The notes below the pieces were generated by a model, which saw only the letters and a program-made list of their open reading frames with translations, made no database searches and had not been told where the DNA came from. Both the position numbers and the translations under genes were made by a program. Below, piece after piece: positions 17,393 through 37,233 of a stretch of 64,000 nt of DNA. This DNA comes from Escherichia coli. GTDB lineage: Bacteria > Pseudomonadota > Gammaproteobacteria > Enterobacterales > Enterobacteriaceae. The stretch lies in the NCBI RefSeq assembly GCF_016903815.1, contig NZ_CP069974.1; one strand, given 5' to 3'. Every line of letters begins with the position of its first letter. Position 1 is the first letter of the stretch.

Positions 17393-19776
17393 GTGCGACA
17401 GGAAGTCGCTTAACGTATTGTTTTACATTGATAAAACCAGCTATCCCATTAGCTGTAGCCTACCGGGACAGGCGTTGCCGGCAACGGCGGGGTCTGAAGC
17501 TCCCGGGACAACGAGAGCCGGGCGTCAGCCCGGGTAATGCCCCGTGAGGGGCTTTACCTTGCTGCAAGCATCATGCGGCAGGAGAGCAAGGCTGGTCAGA
17601 AGGGTTAACACATGTGAACTGTTGATAAACACCGTTATCGGCAACAGGCCAAAGATGCTGACAGGCCTGAACCAAAAGGTACGGGGTCCGGTTGCTACCT
17701 CGCGCACAGGGAGCACATGGGCGCAGAGACCCCCGGTGAAGAGACAGAACCCGCCCTGACCCTCTGTATGTTAAGCGGAACCTGGTAAACCCGTATCGCT
17801 GCCTCACAGGCAGGTGAACCGCAAGGAACACTGTTAGCGGTGCGGGCATAGGAGGACGGAAAAAGCGAATGCCCGGCTGTAATAACCGGGATACGGGGCA
17901 GGTTCCCCGACGCGAAAGCGGGCAGACTTCCGTCTGGTCTTTAATTGCATGAAAAGCTGTAAAGCAGTCAAAAGGATATCAGCGAGATGAATACACACAT
18001 CAGTGTGTCCACGATACCCCACCCGACAGGCTGGCACACCATAAACTGGAAAGCATGCCATGCCCGGGTGCGAAAGCTACAGTTACGGATTGCAAAGGCA
18101 ACCCGACAGCAACAATGGCGGCAGGTCAGAGAACTACAGCGCATCCTCACCCGCTCATTCTCCGGCAAAGCCGTGGCTGTCAGGCGTGTAACTGAAAATA
18201 CCGGTAAAAGGACACCCGGTATTGACGGAAAAATATGGCACACACCGAAGGAGAAATGGGAAGGAATATGCAGCCTGAATCTGTGTGGTTACAGGCCACA
18301 GCCACTACGGCGAATACATATCCCAAAATCAAACGGCAAAACGCGACCGCTGGGCATACCCACAATGAGGGACCGGGCCATGCAGGCACTGTGGCTGCTG
18401 GCTCTGGAACCCGTATCCGAGACCACTGCTGACCATAACAGCTATGGTTTCAGACCAATGCGCAGCACGCATGACGCCATTGAGTCCATTTTTCTGCGGA
18501 TGAGCCAGAAAGTATCGCCCAAATGGATACTGGAGGGCGATATTAAAGGGTGCTTCGATAACATCAGCCATGACTGGCTGCTTTCCCATATTCCGATGGA
18601 CAGGAGACTGCTTAAAAAATGGTTGAAAGCAGGTTACATGGAAAGAGGCGTGTTTAACCATACGAACAGCGGGACACCGCAGGGAGGCATCATATCCCCT
18701 GTTCTCGCCAACATGGCTCTGGACGGACTGGAGAAGGAACTGATGCAAACGTTCAGGAAAAGTGGTTATCACAGTGCAAAGCACCAGGTGAATTATGTGA
18801 GATATGCTGATGATTTCATCTGTTCAGGCAGCTCCCGTGAATTGCTGGAAAATGAGGTCAGACCACTGATTGCAGCTTTCATGCGCGAACGAGGGCTGGA
18901 ACTGTCGGAAGAAAAAACAGCGATCACACATATAGATAAAGGCTTCGACTTTTTAGGGCAGAACGTCAGGAAGTACAACGGTAAAATGCTGATTAAACCG
19001 TCGAAGAAAAACCTGAAGAACTTCCTCTGTAAAGTCAGAGAAATAATTAAACGCAATCCGACGCTCCCGGCATGGAAACTGATAGGCCAGCTAAACCCGG
19101 TGATCCGGGGATGGGCTACCTATCACCGACACGTCGTGGCGAAAGAAACATTTAATTATGTCGACACCCAAATCTGGCGAGCTATATGGCGATGGTGTGT
19201 AAGACGGCATCCCCGGAAAGGATTGCGGTGGATCGCCGGACGATACTTCTCCTTTGAAGGCAGGCGCTGGATCTTTAAAGCCATAACCCCGGAAGGGAAA
19301 ATTCTGACACTCTTCCGGGCAATGGAAACACCGATAAAGCGCCATATAAAAATCAAAGGCGAAGCAACACCATACACCCCCGGAATGGAAATCTACTTTG
19401 AACGTCGTCTGGATCTAATCTGGAAAGGCAAATCAAAGAAGATGAAGACAGTAGTTCAACTCTGGAAGAGGCAGGGGAAACACTGTCCGCAGTGCGGACA
19501 ACTCATAACCAACCAGACCGGATGGAATATACATCACCGGATCAGGAAAGTTATGGGCGGCAGTGACGAACTGACCAATCTCGAGTTGTTACATCCGAAC
19601 TGCCACCGACAGTTACACAGCAGGGAAGCCGGTGCTCACCGAAAGCACTTATAAAGGCTTGAGCGGAGTGCGGGGAAACTCGCACGCTCCGTTCTTAGGG
19701 GGCGGCGGCGCAGCAATGTGCCGCTGCTACCCGACCCGGCAGACAGGACAACACTGCAGTAGTCAGAATCAGAGCA
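17393..19776 (+). mobile_element. group II intron copy 1 (RT-maturase-HNH IEP); 3' boundary approximate
   Basis: Starts GTGCGACAGGAAGTCGC; 555-aa IEP in domain IV; domain V-like hairpin GAGCGGAGTGCGGGGAAACTCGCACGCTCCGTTC at 19661-19694; identity with copies 2 and 3 extends to ~19776, true 3' splice site probably within 19735-19776. Confidence 0.75.
17987..19654 (+). CDS. group II intron-encoded reverse transcriptase/maturase with HNH endonuclease domain
   Basis: RT motifs (GTPQGGIISP, YVRYADDF), maturase region, C-terminal CPQCG...HH...HPNCHRQLH. Confidence 0.9.
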   Translation: MNTHISVSTIPHPTGWHTINWKACHARVRKLQLRIAKATRQQQWRQVRELQRILTRSFSGKAVAVRRVTENTGKRTPGIDGKIWHTPKEKWEGICSLNLCGYRPQPLRRIHIPKSNGKTRPLGIPTMRDRAMQALWLLALEPVSETTADHNSYGFRPMRSTHDAIESIFLRMSQKVSPKWILEGDIKGCFDNISHDWLLSHIPMDRRLLKKWLKAGYMERGVFNHTNSGTPQGGIISPVLANMALDGLEKELMQTFRKSGYHSAKHQVNYVRYADDFICSGSSRELLENEVRPLIAAFMRERGLELSEEKTAITHIDKGFDFLGQNVRKYNGKMLIKPSKKNLKNFLCKVREIIKRNPTLPAWKLIGQLNPVIRGWATYHRHVVAKETFNYVDTQIWRAIWRWCVRRHPRKGLRWIAGRYFSFEGRRWIFKAITPEGKILTLFRAMETPIKRHIKIKGEATPYTPGMEIYFERRLDLIWKGKSKKMKTVVQLWKRQGKHCPQCGQLITNQTGWNIHHRIRKVMGGSDELTNLELLHPNCHRQLHSREAGAHRKHL

Positions 19777-20048
19777 GGAAGAAAAAGAGAATAATCACAG
19801 GGAAGGTGATGTGATTTCTGACAGGCCATAACCAGAGAAGGCGGGGGAAAAGAACGGGCGCCGCAGGCGCGCGTTCATCCCCGTTCCTGAAGGGAAACGA
19901 CCTTCCTGAAGTCAGGTTGTTCATGCCCGTACAACATCAGCAAGGAGAAAGGGGCTACCGGCGAACCAGCAGCCCCTTTATAAAGGCGCTTCAGTAGTCA
20001 GACCAGCATCAGTCCTGAAAAGGCGGGCCTGCGCCCGCCTCCAGGTTG

Positions 20049-20207
20049 CTACTTACCGGATTCGTAAGCCATGAAAGCCGCCACCTCTCTGTGTCCGTCT
20101 CTGTAACGAATCTCGCACAGCGATTTTCGTGTCAGATAAGTGAATATCAACAGTGTGAGACACACGATCAACACACACCAGACAAGGGAACTTCGTGGTA
20201 GTTTCAT
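20049..20207 (-). CDS. hok: Hok-family type I toxin (hok/flmA)
   Basis: 52 aa [52 protein letters not shown] matches Hok. Confidence 0.9.
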
Positions 20208-20313
20208 GGCCTTCTTCTCCTTGCGCAAAGCGCGGTAAGAGGCTATCCTGATGTGGACTAGACATAGGGATGCCTCGTGGTGGTTAATGTACTGACCCCA
20301 AAAAGTTGGACAG

Positions 20314-21165
20314 TTAAACACGAGGCATATAGGTCTGATTCCGATATTCAATTGGAGTCAGACCTTTTAATTTCAGGCTAATTCTTCTGCTGTTGTAGTA
20401 TTCAATATATTCCGTAACAGCATCCTTCAGTTCGCTTATATTACTGAACTCATCAAGATAAAAACACTCCGACTTTAAGGTTCCAAAGAAACACTCCACC
20501 ACAGCATTATCCAGACAATTGCCTTTTCTGGACATGCTTTGTTTAATACCATGTTCTTTAAGGATATTTTGATATCTTCTCATACGATACTGCCATCCCT
20601 GGTCAGAGTGCAGAACAGGATGCTCGTGAGGATTAAGCTTTTTGAATGCCTGATCGAGCATATTCTCAACCATGTTCATCACTGGTCTTTCCGAAAGGCT
20701 GTAAGAAATAACTTCGTTGTTGAAGAGATCTATTACTGGAGACAAATACAGCTTGCGCCCATTGACTGCAAATTCAGTAACATCGGTAACCCACTTCTCG
20801 TTTGGCCGCGTAGCCTTGAAATCTCTTTGGAGAACATTAGGGGCGGTTTGCCCTACCTCTCCTCTGTAAGAGCGGTATCGCTTGACCTTAATCGCTGCTT
20901 TAAGTGAGAGGGTTCCCATCAGGCGCTGAACAGCTTTATGGTTAATCTGTTTCCCTTCTCGATGAAGAGACAGCGTTACCCTACGGTATCCGTATCGGCC
21001 TCTATTCTCGTGATAAATCTCACTAATACGCTTTTTAACGTCCGCATACTTGTCAGGCTTGCTGAGAGCCTTTAGATGATAATAAAACGTACTGCGCGGT
21101 ATCTCCGCAGCCCTGAGAAGCTCATCAAGAGGATAAAACTGCCTTAGCTCGTTGAGTACTTTCAC
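20314..21165 (-). CDS. insK: IS150 OrfB (InsK) transposase catalytic part
   Basis: 283 aa with DDE integrase-like region; overlaps orfA as in IS3-family frameshift arrangement. Confidence 0.85.
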
Positions 21166-21683
21166 TTTTTCGTGGGATGAGCTAAGGCTTTCAGCTTTTT
21201 TAGATACATAAGCCGCGTTTCAAGAAATCGAACTTGCCTTTCAAGATCCTCAATGCGTCGGTCTTTTGACAGCTCCAATGCTGATGCCGCTTTTTCTGGA
21301 TCAACTGATATTGCAATGTTTCTTTTGGTGCCAATCTTGAGCGCGCGTAAACCAGCTTCTCCGCGCTCTTCATAGACCTTCAGCCACCTGGCTACAGAAC
21401 CACTACCAGCAAGCATAAAGTGAGCAGCAGCCTGATTAAGGGACATGTGCTGCTCGATCACAGCTTTCACGACCTTAATACGCAACTCTGGATCAGCACT
21501 AACGCCTTTAGGTTTGGGAATTAAACCTTTTTCTCCATGTTTTTCATAGAGGGCAACCCATGTCCTGACCTGGGTTCGGGGGACACCAAAACGTGCCGAG
21601 ATGATCCTGTAACCATCATCAGTTGTGAAGTAGTGATTCACGACTTCAAGGCGCTTTTCAAAAGGGTATTTTGGCTTTGACAT
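21162..21683 (-). CDS. insJ: IS150 OrfA (InsJ)
   Basis: 173 aa MSKPKYPFEKRLEVVNHYFTTDDGYRIISARFGVPRTQVRTWV... HTH, leucine-zipper-like C-terminus. Confidence 0.85.
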   Translation of the reverse strand: MSKPKYPFEKRLEVVNHYFTTDDGYRIISARFGVPRTQVRTWVALYEKHGEKGLIPKPKGVSADPELRIKVVKAVIEQHMSLNQAAAHFMLAGSGSVARWLKVYEERGEAGLRALKIGTKRNIAISVDPEKAASALELSKDRRIEDLERQVRFLETRLMYLKKLKALAHPTKK

Positions 21684-21842
21684 ATTAGGGGCTATTCCAT
21701 TTCATCGTCCAACAAAATGGGTGCAGTACAAGCGCCGGGCACATCATAGCCCATATACCTGCACGCTGACCACACTCACTTTCCCTGAAAATAATCCGCT
21801 CATTCAGACCGTTCACGGGAAATCCGTGTGATTGTTGCCGCA

Positions 21843-22562
21843 TCACGCTGCCTCCCGGAGTTTGTTCGGCACCATCCACCGCTCCATCTCACGAACAGCA
21901 TGACCGACCACCCTTGCCGCCATACCAGCCTCTGCGATGACCTGCCAGAATGGCATATCCTGCCACTGCCAGCGTTCCATTCCGGCCAGTGACGGAAAAC
22001 GCTCGCCCCACTGCCAGAACAGGGTTTCCAGGTCATGCTCTGCCACCCGGTCACTCCAGCGTGCATGCCAGCTTCCGACTGTTTCCGGCGAATGGAATGC
22101 CAGTTCGATTTCAGCCTGAGCGACCAGCGCCTGGTACGCACGGGCTTTCTGCTCTGCCTCCCTCGCCTGCTGGCGGCTGTACTTCTGCATGACCAGCGCG
22201 GATTTATGGCGACTGCGTTCCCTGACACGAAACCGCACCGACGGGAACAAGCGCTCTGCTGCATCACCGGGAAGGGGAAGGAGGCAGACCTCGCCCTGTG
22301 TTTCAATCAGCACATCGATGGCATACAGCCACTGAAGACGGTTGCCGTGCAGTTCTTCTGCGGTCAGGGACGGCATGAAAAATCGCAGGTCAGACAGCGA
22401 TATCCTGCGGCTTCCGTTCAGACAGCGGAAAAACGCCCCCGCATACGGATATTCAGCCAGCGTGTTACCCTGATGGCGGCGTTTTTCGGTCTCCGCCACC
22501 GCCCGCCATGCGGCCTGTTGCTCTGTGCTGAGAGGAACCAGTGCCTGTGAACGTGCGCTCAT
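21843..22562 (-). CDS. psiA: PsiA
   Basis: 239 aa, matches F PsiA by recall; adjacent to psiB. Confidence 0.8.
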
Positions 22563-25868: not shown

Positions 25869-28529
25869 GTAGGGTAGGGTACGTGTGGTCTTTCAAGATA
25901 AATGGCGAATATGTCCTGCTTATCTTGAGTTAGATCACCGTTACCCCCCCTCCGAACCGTACGTGCACCTTTCAATGCATACGGCTCTCCATTGCTAGCT
26001 TATTGGGGATAAACTCATTTAGCAGAATCCCCACTTGAGACAGGTGGTTGCAGGAGTATTCTTCCCTTTTCCTGTCTCAGATCGGGTAGTTTTCCGCTAT
26101 GTAACTTGTCGTGGCAACTTGCGCACAAAATCATCGTTTTCCGGCGGCGTGCGATCATCATTAGTTGCCACAGGCTGGGTTTATATCCGGCCTTACGACC
26201 TTTCTTCAGGTCTTTTAGCTTTCTGACATGATGTACTTCGCAGCGCCCAGTCTTCGCACAATACTCGCAGATCCTTGCCCCTAATCGACGCATGATCTCT
26301 GTTGTGCGGGTTGTGATATGTGCGGTTCTCGGTTCCGTATCGACAATCGTTGTTCGGTTGCGATTGACATGTTTGAGTTTGAAAACCTCAATCTTTCGGG
26401 ATCCATTTTTGGCCTGAACGGTAATAGCCAGATCTCCATTATTTTGCCGTAGCGATTTGGCGACTTTATTCACTGAACTACGTCGTTTATTCGCTAGGGT
26501 CTTAAAAAGGCTTATTTGCCATATGAAATATAATTTTGATAATTTATATTTCATGTCCAGCGCCAGACTGTAGTAGTTCGCCAATCCGCGCATTTCCGCG
26601 TTGAAAGTCAGAACAATTTCAGCTTCACTGAGATTTTGTAGACTTGAACGATGTACAGCCTTCACATTCTCATAACAGCCATATTTCTTTTGGTGACAAA
26701 ATTTAGCGGCTATATTGTCAGGAACGAAGAGCTGCACAATTCCTGTGGTGGATCTCCGGAGAGCGTGCCGCCCTTGCATTTTCTGCTTCAGCAATTTCTT
26801 TGCATCTGCCTGTCTGATTTCATAGCCTAAAAAATTAACTCCTTCTGAGATATGGCGGATCCTGGTCTTTGCTTCATTAACTTCCAATCCCAGTGAAGTA
26901 GTAATAAAGTTTCTGACCTGTCTTGATATATGTTCAGCATCTTTCTTCGAGCCGATGACACCAATTACGAAGTCATCAGCATATCGAACATAGTACATAC
27001 GCCTGAAGTTTGGATCGTTCATGACCTGAGATGGTATAGAACGTTTTTCTTCAAGCAGTCGTTCAATTTCTTTCTTTATGGCTTCTTTTTCTGATTCAGA
27101 ATCAGTTGCCATACCGTCTACTTTCTTTCGTAGTTTATGAATCTTATGGGCCAGCCTGTTCATATCTGGATTCGCTCTTCGTTTTGTACCGCTTGTATAT
27201 GCAGGAATTAAGTTCTGTTCTACAAAACGGTCCAGTTTGTCGAGGTATATATTTGCCAGTAAGGGAGAAATTATCCCACCTTGTGGCGTGCCAGAATATG
27301 AGCGATGGTATTTCCAATTGTCCACATATCCTGCCTTCAGCCACTGTTCGATTAATTTCAGGAAATTCTTATCCTTAATTTTCTCTGCCAGTGTATTCAG
27401 CAATAGTTTGTGGGGGATATTGTCAAAGAAACCTTTGATATCAACATCCACGATCCATTTAACTCCGTTCCAGACTGGACGAATAGATCTGAGCGCAGTT
27501 TCACACGAACGTTTTGGTCTGAATCCATGAGAGTGTTCAGAGAATACTGGTTCATAAACCCTTTCCAGAATAATTCTTGCTACTTCTTGCGCCAGTTTAT
27601 CGTCTCCACCTGGAATCCCCAGCGGTCTGGTTTTTCCGTCCTTTTTTGGGATCTGAACTCTGCGTACAGGTTTCGCTACGTATTCTCTACTCCGCAATGT
27701 TTTTGCCAGCTTCTCTGCTCTTTCGATAGAGAAGCCATCAATGGTATCTGTTGATACACCTTGAGTCAGTGCACCTGCATTGGCCCGTATATTCACGTAG
27801 GCTTGCAGCCACAGTCCGGGCTCACACGCAATTTTGTATAGATTACGTACTGGATACCCTTTTTTTGAAGCATCCTCAATTCCATCTAATCTTTTCTCAA
27901 GTTCATCAGGCAGCATTGGCTAACCCTCCTCTTAGAGATTGATGTATCTAACAACTGTCTCCCTTCCCCGCAGCACTGTGAGGCTTTCATCTCCCTTCCG
28001 GTTGATTTATACCTTTGCTGCTTCCGTATAATGCGGACTGCCGTAGCCCATTACAGGCCGACCTTGAGTACTATGGAGACTCCGCTACCATGCTGGGTAT
28101 AAATCCAGTTTAGGTAGTCCCGTAGTTTCACGGTGTGGAGATGCGATGTACTTAGGATGTCTTTCGATCGTTTAACTATTTCATCAATAGCTGGCCCGTT
28201 AGAGTGGTCACAATCAACGTAGGGCGGATTTCTTGTGCTATTACGGGAATAACGCTTCAATCGTTCTGCGTTATTGGTTTCCTGTTTCCCACATAGATCT
28301 CGACTTCAACAAACCCAGTTTATCCATATACATCTTGCATTGAGTGGTGATACTTATAACGATTTCCGTATTCACCACCCTTTTCTGTGGATGCTATGTT
28401 CACCTCTCCTTTTCAGGATCTCCGAGCCTGTTACCAAGCGAGGCTAACCACAGTATGCAATGGCTATACCACTAAGCCATGTTGCTTTTCATGCAACACT
28501 CCATAAAACACCGCGCTTCAACGGCGCAC
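25869..28529 (-). mobile_element. group II intron (LtrA-like IEP, IIA-like) inserted in ssb in sense orientation
   Basis: Minus-strand 5' end GTGCGCCGTTGAAGCGCGG directly after ssb codon 13; IEP 26015-27916; canonical domain V GAGCCGTATGCATTGAAAGGTGCACGTACGGTTC at 25954-25987 (minus); 3' end ...CCTAC followed by ssb exon 2. Confidence 0.85.
26015..27916 (-). CDS. group II intron reverse transcriptase/maturase (LtrA-like) with C-terminal HNH-like domain
   Basis: YSGTPQGGIISPLLANIYL, YVRYADDFVIGV, maturase region, C-terminal CEYC...HH...CASCHDKLH; closely resembles Ll.LtrB LtrA by recall. Confidence 0.9.
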   Translation of the reverse strand: MLPDELEKRLDGIEDASKKGYPVRNLYKIACEPGLWLQAYVNIRANAGALTQGVSTDTIDGFSIERAEKLAKTLRSREYVAKPVRRVQIPKKDGKTRPLGIPGGDDKLAQEVARIILERVYEPVFSEHSHGFRPKRSCETALRSIRPVWNGVKWIVDVDIKGFFDNIPHKLLLNTLAEKIKDKNFLKLIEQWLKAGYVDNWKYHRSYSGTPQGGIISPLLANIYLDKLDRFVEQNLIPAYTSGTKRRANPDMNRLAHKIHKLRKKVDGMATDSESEKEAIKKEIERLLEEKRSIPSQVMNDPNFRRMYYVRYADDFVIGVIGSKKDAEHISRQVRNFITTSLGLEVNEAKTRIRHISEGVNFLGYEIRQADAKKLLKQKMQGRHALRRSTTGIVQLFVPDNIAAKFCHQKKYGCYENVKAVHRSSLQNLSEAEIVLTFNAEMRGLANYYSLALDMKYKLSKLYFIWQISLFKTLANKRRSSVNKVAKSLRQNNGDLAITVQAKNGSRKIEVFKLKHVNRNRTTIVDTEPRTAHITTRTTEIMRRLGARICEYCAKTGRCEVHHVRKLKDLKKGRKAGYKPSLWQLMMIARRRKTMILCASCHDKLHSGKLPDLRQEKGRILLQPPVSSGDSAK

Positions 28530-29177: not shown

Positions 29178-31561
29178 GTGCGACAGGAAGTCGCTTAACG
29201 TATTGTTTTACATTGATAAAACCAGCTATCCCATTAGCTGTAGCCTACCGGGACAGGCGTTGCCGGCAACGGCGGGGTCTGAAGCTCCCGGGACAACGAG
29301 AGCCGGGCGTCAGCCCGGGTAATGCCCCGTGAGGGGCTTTACCTTGCTGCAAGCATCATGCGGCAGGAGAGCAAGGCTGGTCAGAAGGGTTAACACATGT
29401 GAACTGTTGATAAACACCGTTATCGGCAACAGGCCAAAGATGCTGACAGGCCTGAACCAAAAGGTACGGGGTCCGGTTGCTACCTCGCGCACAGGGAGCA
29501 CATGGGCGCAGAGACCCCCGGTGAAGAGACAGAACCCGCCCTGACCCTCTGTATGTTAAGCGGAACCTGGTAAACCCGTATCGCTGCCTCACAGGCAGGT
29601 GAACCGCAAGGAACACTGTTAGCGGTGCGGGCATAGGAGGACGGAAAAAGCGAATGCCCGGCTGTAATAACCGGGATACGGGGCAGGTTCCCCGACGCGA
29701 AAGCGGGCAGACTTCCGTCTGGTCTTTAATTGCATGAAAAGCTGTAAAGCAGTCAAAAGGATATCAGCGAGATGAATACACACATCAGTGTGTCCACGAT
29801 ACCCCACCCGACAGGCTGGCACACCATAAACTGGAAAGCATGCCATGCCCGGGTGCGAAAGCTACAGTTACGGATTGCAAAGGCAACCCGACAGCAACAA
29901 TGGCGGCAGGTCAGAGAACTACAGCGCATCCTCACCCGCTCATTCTCCGGCAAAGCCGTGGCTGTCAGGCGTGTAACTGAAAATACCGGTAAAAGGACAC
30001 CCGGTATTGACGGAAAAATATGGCACACACCGAAGGAGAAATGGGAAGGAATATGCAGCCTGAATCTGTGTGGTTACAGGCCACAGCCACTACGGCGAAT
30101 ACATATCCCAAAATCAAACGGCAAAACGCGACCGCTGGGCATACCCACAATGAGGGACCGGGCCATGCAGGCACTGTGGCTGCTGGCTCTGGAACCCGTA
30201 TCCGAGACCACTGCTGACCATAACAGCTATGGTTTCAGACCAATGCGCAGCACGCATGACGCCATTGAGTCCATTTTTCTGCGGATGAGCCAGAAAGTAT
30301 CGCCCAAATGGATACTGGAGGGCGATATTAAAGGGTGCTTCGATAACATCAGCCATGACTGGCTGCTTTCCCATATTCCGATGGACAGGAGACTGCTTAA
30401 AAAATGGTTGAAAGCAGGTTACATGGAAAGAGGCGTGTTTAACCATACGAACAGCGGGACACCGCAGGGAGGCATCATATCCCCTGTTCTCGCCAACATG
30501 GCTCTGGACGGACTGGAGAAGGAACTGATGCAAACGTTCAGGAAAAGTGGTTATCACAGTGCAAAGCACCAGGTGAATTATGTGAGATATGCTGATGATT
30601 TCATCTGTTCAGGCAGCTCCCGTGAATTGCTGGAAAATGAGGTCAGACCACTGATTGCAGCTTTCATGCGCGAACGAGGGCTGGAACTGTCGGAAGAAAA
30701 AACAGCGATCACACATATAGATAAAGGCTTCGACTTTTTAGGGCAGAACGTCAGGAAGTACAACGGTAAAATGCTGATTAAACCGTCGAAGAAAAACCTG
30801 AAGAACTTCCTCTGTAAAGTCAGAGAAATAATTAAACGCAATCCGACGCTCCCGGCATGGAAACTGATAGGCCAGCTAAACCCGGTGATCCGGGGATGGG
30901 CTACCTATCACCGACACGTCGTGGCGAAAGAAACATTTAATTATGTCGACACCCAAATCTGGCGAGCTATATGGCGATGGTGTGTAAGACGGCATCCCCG
31001 GAAAGGATTGCGGTGGATCGCCGGACGATACTTCTCCTTTGAAGGCAGGCGCTGGATCTTTAAAGCCATAACCCCGGAAGGGAAAATTCTGACACTCTTC
31101 CGGGCAATGGAAACACCGATAAAGCGCCATATAAAAATCAAAGGCGAAGCAACACCATACACCCCCGGAATGGAAATCTACTTTGAACGTCGTCTGGATC
31201 TAATCTGGAAAGGCAAATCAAAGAAGATGAAGACAGTAGTTCAACTCTGGAAGAGGCAGGGGAAACACTGTCCGCAGTGCGGACAACTCATAACCAACCA
31301 GACCGGATGGAATATACATCACCGGATCAGGAAAGTTATGGGCGGCAGTGACGAACTGACCAATCTCGAGTTGTTACATCCGAACTGCCACCGACAGTTA
31401 CACAGCAGGGAAGCCGGTGCTCACCGAAAGCACTTATAAAGGCTTGAGCGGAGTGCGGGGAAACTCGCACGCTCCGTTCTTAGGGGGCGGCGGCGCAGCA
31501 ATGTGCCGCTGCTACCCGACCCGGCAGACAGGACAACACTGCAGTAGTCAGAATCAGAGCA
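29178..31561 (+). mobile_element. group II intron copy 2
   Basis: Identical to copy 1 across the IEP and flanking RNA domains; same junction with the upstream repeat. Confidence 0.75.
29772..31439 (+). CDS. group II intron-encoded RT/maturase/HNH (copy 2)
   Basis: 555-aa protein identical to the copy 1 IEP. Confidence 0.9.
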   Translation: MNTHISVSTIPHPTGWHTINWKACHARVRKLQLRIAKATRQQQWRQVRELQRILTRSFSGKAVAVRRVTENTGKRTPGIDGKIWHTPKEKWEGICSLNLCGYRPQPLRRIHIPKSNGKTRPLGIPTMRDRAMQALWLLALEPVSETTADHNSYGFRPMRSTHDAIESIFLRMSQKVSPKWILEGDIKGCFDNISHDWLLSHIPMDRRLLKKWLKAGYMERGVFNHTNSGTPQGGIISPVLANMALDGLEKELMQTFRKSGYHSAKHQVNYVRYADDFICSGSSRELLENEVRPLIAAFMRERGLELSEEKTAITHIDKGFDFLGQNVRKYNGKMLIKPSKKNLKNFLCKVREIIKRNPTLPAWKLIGQLNPVIRGWATYHRHVVAKETFNYVDTQIWRAIWRWCVRRHPRKGLRWIAGRYFSFEGRRWIFKAITPEGKILTLFRAMETPIKRHIKIKGEATPYTPGMEIYFERRLDLIWKGKSKKMKTVVQLWKRQGKHCPQCGQLITNQTGWNIHHRIRKVMGGSDELTNLELLHPNCHRQLHSREAGAHRKHL

Positions 31562-33815: not shown

Positions 33816-34046
33816 TCAGTTAAAAGCGCGTTTCAGTTCGAGTGTGCGGAGCACCTGCCCGAAGGCCGTGTTTTTCATGGCGGGGATGTGTACACCACGC
33901 CCCCGGTGAAAACTCCGGGCAATGTGTCGCCCGAAGGCTTTCAGCACGGGGTCAATTTCCGGCGCGGGGATGTCTTCGCGTCTGAAACGGGGATGACGGC
34001 GGGGCTTTACAGCCGCTGCGGAAGGTGAAACAATACTTACTGTCAT
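33816..34046 (-). CDS. small hypothetical leading-region protein (76 aa)
   Basis: ORF downstream (minus strand) of repeat copy 3; no motif recognised. Confidence 0.35.
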   Translation of the reverse strand: MTVSIVSPSAAAVKPRRHPRFRREDIPAPEIDPVLKAFGRHIARSFHRGRGVHIPAMKNTAFGQVLRTLELKRAFN

Positions 34047-34284
34047 AATTTAGCCTCTTATGACGTTAATTAATGAAACCGTAAAGACTGTTCGTGCAGT
34101 CTCTGCGGTGTGGATTAAGCAGGTCCCTGACCTGCTTTTTTCATATCTGCGTCTGACGTTCTCCGGTGTTTTCCTCCTTCTGTTCCTGCGTTCTCATTAC
34201 CTGCCAGCCGGATGACTGACAGAACACATAAATGCGTATTGCCGGAGCCTGAAATAAATCCTGATTTTTAAAGAACATCACCCG

Positions 34285-34848: not shown

Positions 34849-37233
34849 GTGCGACAGGAAGTCGCTTAACGTATTGTTTTACATTGATAAAACCAGCTAT
34901 CCCATTAGCTGTAGCCTACCGGGACAGGCGTTGCCGGCAACGGCGGGGTCTGAAGCTCCCGGGACAACGAGAGCCGGGCGTCAGCCCGGGTAATGCCCCG
35001 TGAGGGGCTTTACCTTGCTGCAAGCATCATGCGGCAGGAGAGCAAGGCTGGTCAGAAGGGTTAACACATGTGAACTGTTGATAAACACCGTTATCGGCAA
35101 CAGGCCAAAGATGCTGACAGGCCTGAACCAAAAGGTACGGGGTCCGGTTGCTACCTCGCGCACAGGGAGCACATGGGCGCAGAGACCCCCGGTGAAGAGA
35201 CAGAACCCGCCCTGACCCTCTGTATGTTAAGCGGAACCTGGTAAACCCGTATCGCTGCCTCACAGGCAGGTGAACCGCAAGGAACACTGTTAGCGGTGCG
35301 GGCATAGGAGGACGGAAAAAGCGAATGCCCGGCTGTAATAACCGGGATACGGGGCAGGTTCCCCGACGCGAAAGCGGGCAGACTTCCGTCTGGTCTTTAA
35401 TTGCATGAAAAGCTGTAAAGCAGTCAAAAGGATATCAGCGAGATGAATACACACATCAGTGTGTCCACGATACCCCACCCGACAGGCTGGCACACCATAA
35501 ACTGGAAAGCATGCCATGCCCGGGTGCGAAAGCTACAGTTACGGATTGCAAAGGCAACCCGACAGCAACAATGGCGGCAGGTCAGAGAACTACAGCGCAT
35601 CCTCACCCGCTCATTCTCCGGCAAAGCCGTGGCTGTCAGGCGTGTAACTGAAAATACCGGTAAAAGGACACCCGGTATTGACGGAAAAATATGGCACACA
35701 CCGAAGGAGAAATGGGAAGGAATATGCAGCCTGAATCTGTGTGGTTACAGGCCACAGCCACTACGGCGAATACATATCCCAAAATCAAACGGCAAAACGC
35801 GACCGCTGGGCATACCCACAATGAGGGACCGGGCCATGCAGGCACTGTGGCTGCTGGCTCTGGAACCCGTATCCGAGACCACTGCTGACCATAACAGCTA
35901 TGGTTTCAGACCAATGCGCAGCACGCATGACGCCATTGAGTCCATTTTTCTGCGGATGAGCCAGAAAGTATCGCCCAAATGGATACTGGAGGGCGATATT
36001 AAAGGGTGCTTCGATAACATCAGCCATGACTGGCTGCTTTCCCATATTCCGATGGACAGGAGACTGCTTAAAAAATGGTTGAAAGCAGGTTACATGGAAA
36101 GAGGCGTGTTTAACCATACGAACAGCGGGACACCGCAGGAAGGCATCATATCCCCTGTTCTCGCCAACATGGCTCTGGACGGACTGGAGAAGGAACTGAT
36201 GCAAACGTTCAGGAAAAGTGGTTATCACAGTGCAAAGCACCAGGTGAATTATGTGAGATATGCTGATGATTTCATCTGTTCAGGCAGCTCCCGTGAATTG
36301 CTGGAAAATGAGGTCAGACCACTGATTGCAGCTTTCATGCGCGAACGAGGGCTGGAACTGTCGGAAGAAAAAACAGCGATCACACATATAGATAAAGGCT
36401 TCGACTTTTTAGGGCAGAACGTCAGGAAGTACAACGGTAAAATGCTGATTAAACCGTCGAAGAAAAACCTGAAGAACTTCCTCTGTAAAGTCAGAGAAAT
36501 AATTAAACGCAATCCGACGCTCCCGGCATGGAAACTGATAGGCCAGCTAAACCCGGTGATCCGGGGATGGGCTACCTATCACCGACACGTCGTGGCGAAA
36601 GAAACATTTAATTATGTCGACACCCAAATCTGGCGAGCTATATGGCGATGGTGTGTAAGACGGCATCCCCGGAAAGGATTGCGGTGGATCGCCGGACGAT
36701 ACTTCTCCTTTGAAGGCAGGCGCTGGATCTTTAAAGCCATAACCCCGGAAGGGAAAATTCTGACACTCTTCCGGGCAATGGAAACACCGATAAAGCGCCA
36801 TATAAAAATCAAAGGCGAAGCAACACCATACACCCCCGGAATGGAAATCTACTTTGAACGTCGTCTGGATCTAATCTGGAAAGGCAAATCAAAGAAGATG
36901 AAGACAGTAGTTCAACTCTGGAAGAGGCAGGGGAAACACTGTCCGCAGTGCGGACAACTCATAACCAACCAGACCGGATGGAATATACATCACCGGATCA
37001 GGAAAGTTATGGGCGGCAGTGACGAACTGACCAATCTCGAGTTGTTACATCCGAACTGCCACCGACAGTTACACAGCAGGGAAGCCGGTGCTCACCGAAA
37101 GCACTTATAAAGGCTTGAGCGGAGTGCGGGGAAACTCGCACGCTCCGTTCTTAGGGGGCGGCGGCGCAGCAATGTGCCGCTGCTACCCGACCCGGCAGAC
37201 AGAACAACACTGCAGTAGTCAGAATCAGAGCAG
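34849..37233 (+). mobile_element. group II intron copy 3
   Basis: Identical to copies 1 and 2 except a single substitution in the IEP. Confidence 0.75.
35443..37110 (+). CDS. group II intron-encoded RT/maturase/HNH (copy 3, Gly to Glu substitution in RT motif)
   Basis: GTPQEGIISP instead of GTPQGGIISP (gga to gaa); otherwise identical to copies 1 and 2. Confidence 0.9.
   Translation: MNTHISVSTIPHPTGWHTINWKACHARVRKLQLRIAKATRQQQWRQVRELQRILTRSFSGKAVAVRRVTENTGKRTPGIDGKIWHTPKEKWEGICSLNLCGYRPQPLRRIHIPKSNGKTRPLGIPTMRDRAMQALWLLALEPVSETTADHNSYGFRPMRSTHDAIESIFLRMSQKVSPKWILEGDIKGCFDNISHDWLLSHIPMDRRLLKKWLKAGYMERGVFNHTNSGTPQEGIISPVLANMALDGLEKELMQTFRKSGYHSAKHQVNYVRYADDFICSGSSRELLENEVRPLIAAFMRERGLELSEEKTAITHIDKGFDFLGQNVRKYNGKMLIKPSKKNLKNFLCKVREIIKRNPTLPAWKLIGQLNPVIRGWATYHRHVVAKETFNYVDTQIWRAIWRWCVRRHPRKGLRWIAGRYFSFEGRRWIFKAITPEGKILTLFRAMETPIKRHIKIKGEATPYTPGMEIYFERRLDLIWKGKSKKMKTVVQLWKRQGKHCPQCGQLITNQTGWNIHHRIRKVMGGSDELTNLELLHPNCHRQLHSREAGAHRKHL

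What the first reader, a model, noticed from the sequence alone, without database searches (positions are those of the whole stretch)
20049..21730. IS150 inserted about 80 bp upstream of an intact hok toxin ORF
The hok ORF is intact, but IS150 (20288-21730) lies between it and the psiA-proximal region where the hok mRNA promoter, mok start and sok antisense gene would be expected. The insertion therefore probably uncouples hok from its native control, either silencing the post-segregational killing module or placing the toxin under IS-derived transcription. No obvious target-site duplication flanks the element.
Basis: partly seen in the sequence, partly recalled or inferred. Interest (0 to 1): 0.45.

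Follow-up and report, generated by a model that had tools for sequence, protein, structure and literature searches.

The report
IS150-disrupted hok/sok plasmid killer locus
A mobile element (IS150) has landed in, and removed 87 bases of, the control region of a plasmid "addiction" toxin gene (hok), most likely disabling it; this is an ordinary kind of event, but the same short control region has been hit by IS150 at least three separate times in E. coli plasmids.

Summary
An intact R1-type hok ORF (20049-20207, minus strand) lies exactly 80 bp from an intact 1,443-bp IS150 (20288-21730, same direction as hok), with no target-site duplication.

Alignment with an uninterrupted copy shows that IS150 replaces 87 bp of the hok leader (mRNA +7 to +93).
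- **Lost:** the tac and ucb/anti-SD elements, and the 3' arm and terminator of Sok.
- **Stranded on the psiA side:** the hok promoter and the first 6 nt of the mRNA.

The missing duplication has an explanation. The left junction equals that of plasmids with a simple IS150 insertion (TSD TAA), and the right junction equals that of a second simple insertion (TSD AGCG). A third site (TSD GAA) lies 4 bp away. About 19 PLSDB plasmids carry the window's form, about 310 carry IS150 in this leader, and so do roughly 5% of complete E. coli genomes.

The killing module is most likely disabled. A rewired module is not excluded, because IS150's end supplies a terminator-like hairpin and a 10-nt anti-SD match. 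This is a new member of a known kind, of modest interest.

The parts
20049..20207 (-). hok toxin ORF, 52 codons plus stop. It is intact, with one synonymous change (20088, AGG>AGA, Arg40) relative to all related loci compared.
20053..20265 (-). mok reading frame (70 aa), intact, overlapping hok. Its Shine-Dalgarno GAGG lies at 20273-20276.
   Evidence: Numbering is collinear with R1 hok/sok as given in PMC9841398 (G105/A106 in GAGG, stop at 330-332).
19983..20048 (-). hok mRNA 3' UTR, with the terminal stem of the truncated mRNA and the fbi element (...CTGAAGCGCC). It is identical to the uninterrupted locus.
   Evidence: The position of the full-length 3' end (~+398) is from my own knowledge of the R1 literature.
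20221..20249 (+). Presumed sok promoter (TTGCGC-17-TATCCT), retained.
   Evidence: Read directly from the sequence. The assignment is from my own knowledge of R1 sok. It scores 8 of 12, below the threshold of the consensus scan, so one search did not list it.
20256..20287 (+). Remnant of the Sok antisense RNA gene: the 5' recognition tail and the 5' arm of its hairpin (~32 nt), antisense to the mok SD and start. The 3' arm and the U-tract are deleted.
   Evidence: The start site is inferred.
20288..21730 (-). IS150, 1,443 bp, complete. IRR is at 20288 and onward, orfB at 20314-21165, the frameshift motif AAAAAAG at 21195-21201, orfA at 21162-21683, and IRL ends at 21730. It is transcribed in the same direction as hok.
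20331..20365 (+). 15-bp hairpin inside the IS150 right end, followed by TTTAATTT on the + strand. It is terminator-like for transcripts that enter IS150 from the sok promoter.
20270..20322 (.). 10-nt perfect inverted repeat spanning the junction. ATGCCTCGTG (20270-20279, hok leader, contains the complement of the mok SD) pairs with CACGAGGCAT (20313-20322, the last codons of IS150 orfB).
   Evidence: for the folds. In one search, 63 of 20,000 shuffles gave a match at least as long.
21731..21772 (-). Stranded hok promoter (-35 TGGTCA 21772-21767, -10 TATGAT 21748-21743) plus hok mRNA +1..+6 (GGCGCT, 21736-21731). It now points into IS150 IRL and orfA.
   Evidence: The -10 TATGAT is validated experimentally in PMC9841398.
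21843..22562 (-). psiA (plasmid SOS inhibition protein A), the upstream neighbour. It places the locus in the IncF leading region.

Best explanation
This is an R1-type hok/sok post-segregational killing locus in the leading region of an IncF plasmid (order traM ... hok - psiA - psiB - parB-like - ssb). A complete IS150 has broken it, and 87 bp of the hok leader (mRNA +7 to +93) have been lost.

Shown:
- The hok promoter and the first 6 nt of the mRNA are now 1.44 kb from the rest of the gene, and they fire into the left end of IS150.
- The tac partner region, the ucb/anti-SD box (A70-C74) and the 3' arm plus terminator of Sok are deleted.
- The mok SD and start, mok, hok, the 3' UTR with fbi, the sok promoter and about 32 nt of Sok remain unchanged.

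Inferred:
- hok can no longer be made as its own discrete, long-lived mRNA that is locked by 5'-3' pairing. That mRNA is what makes killing post-segregational.
- Any hok RNA must arise by read-through across IS150, from the hok promoter and/or the promoter of IS150. Most of orfB is untranslated, so this read-through is probably weak.
- Native Sok cannot be made.
- The net result is a disabled addiction module whose toxin ORF merely has not yet decayed.

History (inferred from junction sharing): the state without a duplication arose in two steps from simple IS150 insertions. There are two candidate routes. One is homologous recombination between IS150 copies of a TAA-site insertion and an AGCG-site insertion. 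The other is an IS150-mediated adjacent deletion that started from the AGCG-site insertion and ended at the preferred site at the apex of the Sok hairpin.
For: Extent of the damage:
- Alignment with an uninterrupted, otherwise identical locus (NZ_CP024852) shows exactly 87 bp replaced by IS150.
- Positions map one-to-one onto the R1 numbering used in PMC9841398, where tac G4-T6, anti-SD A70-C74, SD G105-G108 and the -10 TATGAT were defined by mutation.
- The Rfam sok/hok-leader model scores 88.9 bits on the intact locus and 35.5 bits here, against a gathering score of 59.
- The promoter scan recovers the hok promoter on the far side of IS150. It finds no outward promoter at the IS150 right end and no minus-strand terminator inside IS150.

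Why hok is probably not expressed:
- R1 hok from its own promoter in single copy is lethal without Sok, and chromosomal Sok RNAs do not protect (PMC9841398). Plasmids with a truncated sok can therefore persist only if hok is not effectively expressed or if a substitute antisense RNA works.
- The window holds no second hok/sok copy. In the identical plasmids the 2,151-bp query, which spans both IS150 and the hok locus, matched at only one place per record.

History:
- The left junction equals that of NZ_AP022223 (TSD TAA). The right junction equals that of NZ_CP015086 (TSD AGCG). A further deletion variant exists in NZ_CP109875.
- The psiA-side SNP haplotype equals that of the AGCG type.
- In the long-term evolution experiment, IS150 adjacent deletions without a duplication are frequent and arise in two steps (PMC11708052).
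- Inactivation of hok loci by insertion elements has precedent in E. coli K-12 (Pedersen & Gerdes 1999, as cited in PMC7232551).
Against: - No expression or stability data were available, so silencing is an inference.
- hok, mok, the mok SD, the sok promoter and the 3' UTR carry no inactivating mutation. All IS150 copies are identical, however, so the events are recent and the lack of decay says little.
- IS150 runs in the same direction as hok and has no intrinsic terminator in that direction, so read-through into mok-hok is possible.
- The transcript from the sok promoter is predicted to gain a stable stem and a terminator-like hairpin from IS150. An antisense RNA covering the mok SD and start may therefore still be made.
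- No plasmid with two IS150 copies flanking the 87 bp was found, so the recombination route lacks its simplest intermediate.
Confidence: 0.6

Rival explanations
1. The module is rewired rather than dead. The sok promoter now makes a chimeric antisense RNA of about 118 nt (~20256 to ~20373). It keeps the 5' recognition tail and ~32 nt of complementarity to the mok SD and start. Its stabilising stem and intrinsic terminator come from the right end of IS150. hok is co-transcribed with the IS150 transposase genes. In that RNA a 10-bp stem, formed with the last codons of orfB, replaces the lost ucb box and sequesters the mok SD. A toxin-antitoxin relationship would therefore persist, possibly coupled to IS150 transcription or translation.
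For: - Fold predictions: the chimeric RNA folds at -46.4 kcal/mol (z = -5.5). Its 5' tail is largely unpaired, and it has a 10-bp AUGCCUCGUG/CACGAGGCAU stem and a 15-bp hairpin followed by UUUUAAUUU.
- The terminator scan lists that hairpin on the + strand.
- The sense read-through RNA is predicted to pair the same 10 nt across the mok SD.
- Complementarity of 10 nt or more occurs in 63 of 20,000 shuffles.
- About 200 further plasmids (TAA and GAA types) carry the same or nearly the same sok-to-IS150 fusion.
Against: - Everything here is predicted structure. There is no transcript evidence.
- The complementarity was noticed after the fact.
- Post-segregational killing needs a very stable, inert toxin mRNA pool. 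A read-through RNA about 1.9 kb long that lacks tac at a defined 5' end is unlikely to provide that pool.
- Untranslated orfB is a likely target for Rho termination.
Confidence: 0.2
2. hok is deregulated. IS-derived or hok-promoter read-through transcription expresses Hok without effective antisense control, which makes the locus costly or conditionally toxic to the host.
For: - The ucb/anti-SD box that normally hides the mok SD is deleted. PMC9841398 argues that loss of G71/C72 pairing would release the SD.
- Native Sok cannot be made.
- IS150 points toward hok with no intrinsic terminator in that direction.
Against: - Unrepressed R1 hok is lethal even in single copy (PMC9841398).
- This exact arrangement is nevertheless found at 100% identity in about 19-21 plasmids from birds, sewage and human urine, blood and stool. 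Related sok-truncating insertions occur in about 200 more plasmids.
- No compensating hok mutation is seen.
Confidence: 0.05
3. Alternative history: a single IS150 transposition created the insertion and the 87-bp deletion at once, for example by insertion into a break, rather than two steps from simple insertions.
For: IS insertions without a duplication that coincide with deletions have been proposed as single events for other IS families (PMC11708052).
Against: - Both junctions coincide to the base with junctions of simple insertions that carry duplications and exist in the same plasmid family. A one-step event would need two coincidences.
- All 14 IS150 deletion events in the long-term evolution experiment were traced to an earlier simple insertion.
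Confidence: 0.1

Closest known systems
hok/sok (parB) of plasmid R1, a type I toxin-antitoxin and post-segregational killing system
   Same: - The Hok protein is of the same family and length, and the mok overlap is the same.
- The SD, start and stop positions are the same (+105-108, +116, +174, +330-332).
- The -10 TATGAT is the same, as are tac G4-T6 and anti-SD A70-C74 in the uninterrupted relatives.
- The 3' stem and fbi are the same.
   Different: Here +7..+93 is missing and 1,443 bp of IS150 separate the promoter from the rest. The Sok hairpin and terminator, tac context and ucb are absent, and the Rfam model falls below threshold.
Chromosomal hok loci of E. coli K-12 inactivated by insertion elements (Pedersen & Gerdes 1999, as cited in PMC7232551)
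   Same: A hok-family locus with a preserved toxin ORF is rendered non-functional by an insertion sequence. IS150 is one of the elements involved, a detail that rests on my own knowledge.
   Different: - Those are chromosomal homologues.
- This is the plasmid R1-type locus in the conjugative leading region.
- The IS sits inside the 5' leader and the sok gene.
- It belongs to a series of at least three independent insertions within 95 bp.
IS150 'IS-del' adjacent deletions in the E. coli long-term evolution experiment (PMC11708052)
   Same: IS150 has no target-site duplication and a short deletion next to it, derived from an earlier simple insertion.
   Different: Here the deletion endpoint coincides exactly with the junction of another natural simple insertion. 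Recombination between two IS150 copies is therefore an equally good route.
flm (F leading-region maintenance) locus of plasmid F
   Same: The position is the same, immediately downstream of psiA in the leading region. This rests on my own knowledge, and the F sequence was not aligned here.
   Different: It was not compared directly. The uninterrupted relative used here is collinear with R1 hok/sok numbering.

Membership tests
[quoted passage not shown] | Hok-family toxin ORF | tested here: met
   NF007279 at 126.4 bits against a cut-off of 73. The ORF is intact.
[quoted passage not shown] | Overlapping mok frame with its own SD and start, to which hok translation is coupled | tested here: met
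   The 70-aa ORF runs 20053-20265, with GAGG at 20273-20276.
[quoted passage not shown] | hok promoter contiguous with the leader, so that a discrete mRNA of about 400 nt is made | tested here: not met
   The promoter and +1..+6 lie at 21731-21772, separated from +94 (20287) by IS150.
[quoted passage not shown] | 5' regulatory elements tac and ucb (anti-SD), which with fbi lock and unlock translation | tested here: not met
   +7..+93, which includes A70-C74, is deleted. The elements are as defined in PMC9841398. fbi and the 3' stem are present.
[quoted passage not shown] | Complete Sok antisense RNA gene: promoter, 5' tail, hairpin and terminator | tested here: not met
   The promoter and about 32 nt are retained. 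The 3' arm and U-tract are deleted.
[quoted passage not shown] | Match to Rfam RF01794 at or above the gathering score | tested here: not met
   35.5 bits against 59 here, and 88.9 bits for the intact relative.
[quoted passage not shown] | Post-segregational killing or plasmid stabilisation | not testable with these tools
   Needs plasmid-loss or rifampicin killing assays.
IS150 (IS3 family) | Element of about 1.44 kb with imperfect terminal inverted repeats beginning TGTACTG | tested here: met
   1,443 bp, with the repeats compared.
IS150 (IS3 family) | orfA and orfB in a -1 frame relationship with the A AAA AAG slippery motif, and an IS3-type DDE transposase | tested here: met
   ORFs, the motif at IS position 530, and NF033516 at 350 bits.
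IS150 (IS3 family) | 3-4 bp target-site duplication | tested here: not met
   The flanks are TAA and AGC. The feature is met in the related simple insertions: TAA in L002, AGCG in L003 and GAA in L005. Its absence here is explained by the 87-bp loss.
IS150 (IS3 family) | Near-identity to copies annotated as IS150 | tested here: met
   0-1 differences over 1,443 bp from copies that RefSeq annotates as IS150 family.

The most novel reading that the evidence does not exclude
IS150 insertion at the apex of the Sok hairpin may be a recurrent, tolerated way of converting hok/sok rather than destroying it. The IS150 right end would supply a replacement terminator and stem for a chimeric Sok. It would also supply a 10-nt anti-SD that re-hides the mok ribosome-binding site. 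That anti-SD lies in the last four codons of orfB. Ribosomes finishing the transposase frame would therefore open the stem, which would couple Hok synthesis to IS150 transposase translation. The toxin would then police, or be addicted to, the insertion sequence.
Probability: 0.07. Interest if true: 0.65.

Novelty: new member of a known kind. Interest (0 to 1): 0.3.

Why it matters
- **Plasmid surveys may overcount hok/sok.** Surveys routinely score hok/sok as present from the toxin ORF or a BLAST hit, for example the criteria in PMC10591226. Roughly 310 PLSDB plasmids, and between 243 and 276 of 5,426 complete E. coli genomes (about 5%), carry IS150 inside the hok leader. In those replicons the module is probably not the stabiliser it is assumed to be. 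That affects plasmid-curing designs that supply Sok and estimates of addiction load.
- **The leader is hit repeatedly.** Three independent insertions carrying duplications, all in the same orientation, lie within 95 bp, and two of them are 4 bp apart at a hairpin apex. This gives a natural case for asking whether IS150 prefers such targets or whether selection favours disarming hok/sok in one non-lethal step. Removing Sok alone would kill the host.
- **The event itself is ordinary.** It does not change what is known about either IS150 or hok/sok.

Tried and rejected
1. I looked for a second hok/sok or Sok source in the window and found none (Rfam at gathering threshold; Hok-motif ORF scan; Sok-region pattern search).
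2. I looked for an outward-facing promoter at the IS150 right end that could drive hok. The consensus scan found none.
3. I looked for the simplest recombination intermediate, two IS150 copies flanking the 87 bp. Of 270 matching PLSDB records, none covered the diagnostic 174-nt query.
4. I first read the many 95%-identity junction hits as a divergent hok allele. Fetching one (L005) showed a third insertion site 4 bp away, so that reading was rejected.
5. I suspected that the published pEC958 'hok/sok system' might be IS150-interrupted. It is not, and its locus is uninterrupted.
6. Literature searches for IS150 with hok, hokA or psiA found no description of this arrangement in the held library. 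The absence applies to that library only.
7. I tried to take the Sok promoter mutations from the supplement of PMC9841398, but no supplement is held. The sok promoter and start site therefore rest on my own knowledge plus the sequence.
8. Flanking SNPs could not separate recombination from adjacent deletion. The hok side has no informative site, and the psiA side fits a type B ancestor under both models.

Full report
**1. What is there**

On the minus strand, 20207->20049 encodes a 52-aa Hok protein ([52 protein letters not shown]). It matches the NCBIfam Hok family model at 126 bits against a cut-off of 73.

Positions 20288-21730 form a complete 1,443-bp IS150:
- The terminal inverted repeats begin TGTACTG.
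- orfA (21162-21683) and orfB (20314-21165) lie on the minus strand.
- The A AAA AAG frameshift motif is present.
- OrfB matches the IS3-family transposase model at 350 bits.
- The element has 0-1 differences from copies that RefSeq annotates as IS150.

Eighty base pairs separate the hok ATG from the IS end. The flanks are ...GGTTAA|IS150|AGCGCC..., so there is no duplication.

Upstream lie psiA (21843-22562), psiB and a ParB-like gene. In an identical plasmid the order is traM ... hok-IS150 ... psiB-parB-like-ssb (psiA itself is not listed in that record's feature table), which is the IncF leading region.

**2. Mapping the insertion against an uninterrupted locus**

I joined the two flanks and searched PLSDB. 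This returned 4,831 records, and the best spanned 895 bp for the 808-bp query. Alignment with one of them (NZ_CP024852, L001) shows that the window lacks exactly 87 bp, and that the flanks are otherwise identical except for one base.

The uninterrupted sequence is collinear with the R1 hok/sok numbering used by Le Rhun et al. 2022 (PMC9841398). The shared landmarks are the -10 TATGAT, tac G4-C5-T6, anti-SD (ucb) A70-C74, mok SD G105-G108, hok codon 2 at A177 and the stop at 330-332.

In that numbering the window lacks +7..+93. The consequences are:
- The hok promoter (21772-21743, also found by the consensus scan) and mRNA +1..+6 remain on the psiA side. They now point into IS150 IRL and orfA.
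- The rest of the tac-side 5' segment (+7 onward), the metastable 5' region, the ucb/anti-SD box and the 3' arm plus U-tract of the Sok hairpin are gone.
- The mok SD (20273-20276), the mok ATG (20265), the intact 70-aa mok frame, hok, and the 3' UTR with the terminal stem and fbi all remain.
- So do the presumed sok promoter (TTGCGC-17-TATCCT, 20221-20249) and about 32 nt of Sok.

The sok promoter and start site are assigned from my own knowledge of R1 plus the sequence. At 8 of 12 matches the promoter falls below the threshold of the scan.

The Rfam model RF01794 scores 88.9 bits on the intact locus and 35.5 bits here, against a gathering score of 59.

The promoter is indeed cut off, but the mok start and the sok promoter lie on the hok side of the IS. 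The event is also an insertion plus a deletion, not a plain insertion.

**3. Why there is no target-site duplication**

Related plasmids show simple IS150 insertions in the same leader. All have the same orientation and identical IS copies:

| Type | Example record | Duplication | Position (R1 numbering) |
|---|---|---|---|
| A | NZ_AP022223 | TAA | +94..+96 |
| B | NZ_CP015086 | AGCG | +3..+6 |
| C | NZ_CP028484 | GAA | +90..+92 |

- Types A and C are 4 bp apart, at the apex of the long Sok/sokT hairpin (fold).
- The window's left junction is the type A left junction, and its right junction is the type B right junction.
- A singleton (NZ_CP109875) keeps the type B right junction and lacks +7..+37.

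Junction-specific 80-nt searches of PLSDB gave these counts:

| Junction query | Records | Breakdown |
|---|---|---|
| Left, A/window | 217 | 30 at 99% identity or more; the rest are type C |
| Right, B/window | 108 | |
| Right, A | 202 | 11 at 99% or more (type A); 191 type C |
| Left, B | 69 | |

- The window's form therefore accounts for about 19 plasmids. This agrees with the 19-21 full-length 100% matches.
- About 310 plasmids carry IS150 somewhere in this leader.
- Among 5,426 complete RefSeq E. coli genomes, the two junctions occur in 174 and 102 genomes.

Two routes fit the junction pattern.
- **Recombination between IS150 copies of types A and B.** No plasmid carrying both copies was found.
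- **IS150-mediated adjacent deletion from type B, ending at the preferred hairpin-apex site.** IS150 'IS-del' events without a duplication are common. In the long-term evolution experiment they always followed an earlier simple insertion (PMC11708052).

The psiA-side SNP haplotype equals type B rather than the type A representative. That fits both routes.

**4. How it most likely works**

In the native system the long-lived full-length hok mRNA is locked by tac/fbi pairing, with ucb hiding the mok SD. Processing at the 3' end releases a translatable form, which Sok then targets for RNase III (PMC9841398).

None of the 5' half of this switch survives here, and native Sok cannot be made. R1 hok from its own promoter is lethal without Sok even in single copy, and chromosomal Sok RNAs do not cross-protect. 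The window contains no second hok/sok.

This arrangement nevertheless occurs unchanged in plasmids from birds, sewage and human infections. The simplest reading is that hok is no longer effectively expressed and that the killing function is lost. I put that at about 0.6.

Inactivation of hok loci by insertion elements has precedent in the K-12 chromosome (Pedersen & Gerdes 1999, as cited in PMC7232551).

**5. What keeps the alternative alive**

IS150 runs in the same direction as hok, with no intrinsic terminator in that direction. Transcripts from the hok promoter or from IS150 could therefore reach mok-hok.

A transcript from the sok promoter that reads into the IS150 right end is predicted to behave as follows:
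- Its 5' tail stays free.
- It forms a 10-bp stem (AUGCCUCGUG with CACGAGGCAU from the last orfB codons).
- It ends at a 15-bp hairpin followed by UUUUAAUUU.

In the sense direction the same 10 nt would pair across the mok SD and mimic the lost ucb. Complementarity this long occurs in 63 of 20,000 shuffles. It was noticed after the fact, though, and all of this is prediction. I give a rewired but working module about 0.2, and a deregulated, harmful hok about 0.05.

**6. Comparison and novelty**

- The toxin half belongs to the hok family. As a functional hok/sok locus it fails four defining features that I tested: a contiguous promoter, tac/ucb, a complete Sok gene and the Rfam threshold.
- The IS is a bona fide IS150 that lacks only the duplication, for a reason now explained.
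- The kind of event, a hok locus broken by an IS, is known. I found no description of this plasmid series in the held literature.
- pEC958, for which hok/sok was reported, has an uninterrupted locus.
- I rate it a new member of a known kind, interest about 0.3.
- The most useful by-products are the demonstration that this short leader is a recurrent IS150 target, and the caution that 'hok present' does not mean 'hok/sok functional' in about 5% of complete E. coli genomes.

Noticed in passing
window 17393-19734, 29178-31519, 34849-37190 (+ strand): There are three near-identical copies of a 2,342-bp group II intron with an LtrA-type reverse transcriptase (Rfam D1-D4 and domain V/VI hits; TIGR04416 at 385 bits). 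The first copy ends about 250 bp downstream of the hok mRNA 3' end. It is absent from an otherwise identical IS150-hok plasmid (L006, NZ_CP023816), which suggests recent intron spread within this plasmid. The repeats extend beyond the intron, so each copy sits in a repeated leading-region unit.
   Followed up: partly
window 25869-25989 (- strand): A fourth, different group II intron domain V/VI hit (RF00029, 65 bits) lies on the opposite strand. It probably belongs to the ltrA intron next to ssb that is also annotated in pEcIMT16316 and pEC958.
   Followed up: no
window 34041-34140 (+ strand): Rfam match to AS-pc01 (RF02875, 'antisense to pHK01_035') at 98.9 bits, above the gathering score.
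   Followed up: no
window 20270-20279 and 20313-20322: A 10-nt perfect inverted repeat joins the hok leader (covering the mok SD) and the last codons of IS150 orfB. The flank (TTAACCACCACGAGGCAT) also resembles the inner part of IRR (TTAAACACGAGGCAT). This could reflect target choice next to an IR-like sequence, or chance (63 of 20,000 shuffles).
   Followed up: partly
window 20088: A synonymous hok change (Arg40 AGG>AGA) is present in the window and in the identical window-type plasmid L006. It is absent from the intact, type A, type B and type C relatives, so it marks this lineage.
   Followed up: partly
L002 (NZ_AP022223), L003 (NZ_CP015086), L005 (NZ_CP028484), L004 (NZ_CP109875): These loci form a series of IS150 insertions in the same hok leader. 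Three are simple insertions with duplications TAA, AGCG and GAA, and one is a further deletion variant (+7..+37). All have the same orientation, and the IS copies are identical or differ by 1 nt.
   Followed up: yes
window 21731-21772: The stranded hok promoter now starts transcription 6 nt outside IS150 IRL, in the sense direction of orfA and orfB. This IS150 copy may therefore receive extra, constitutive transposase transcription.
   Followed up: no
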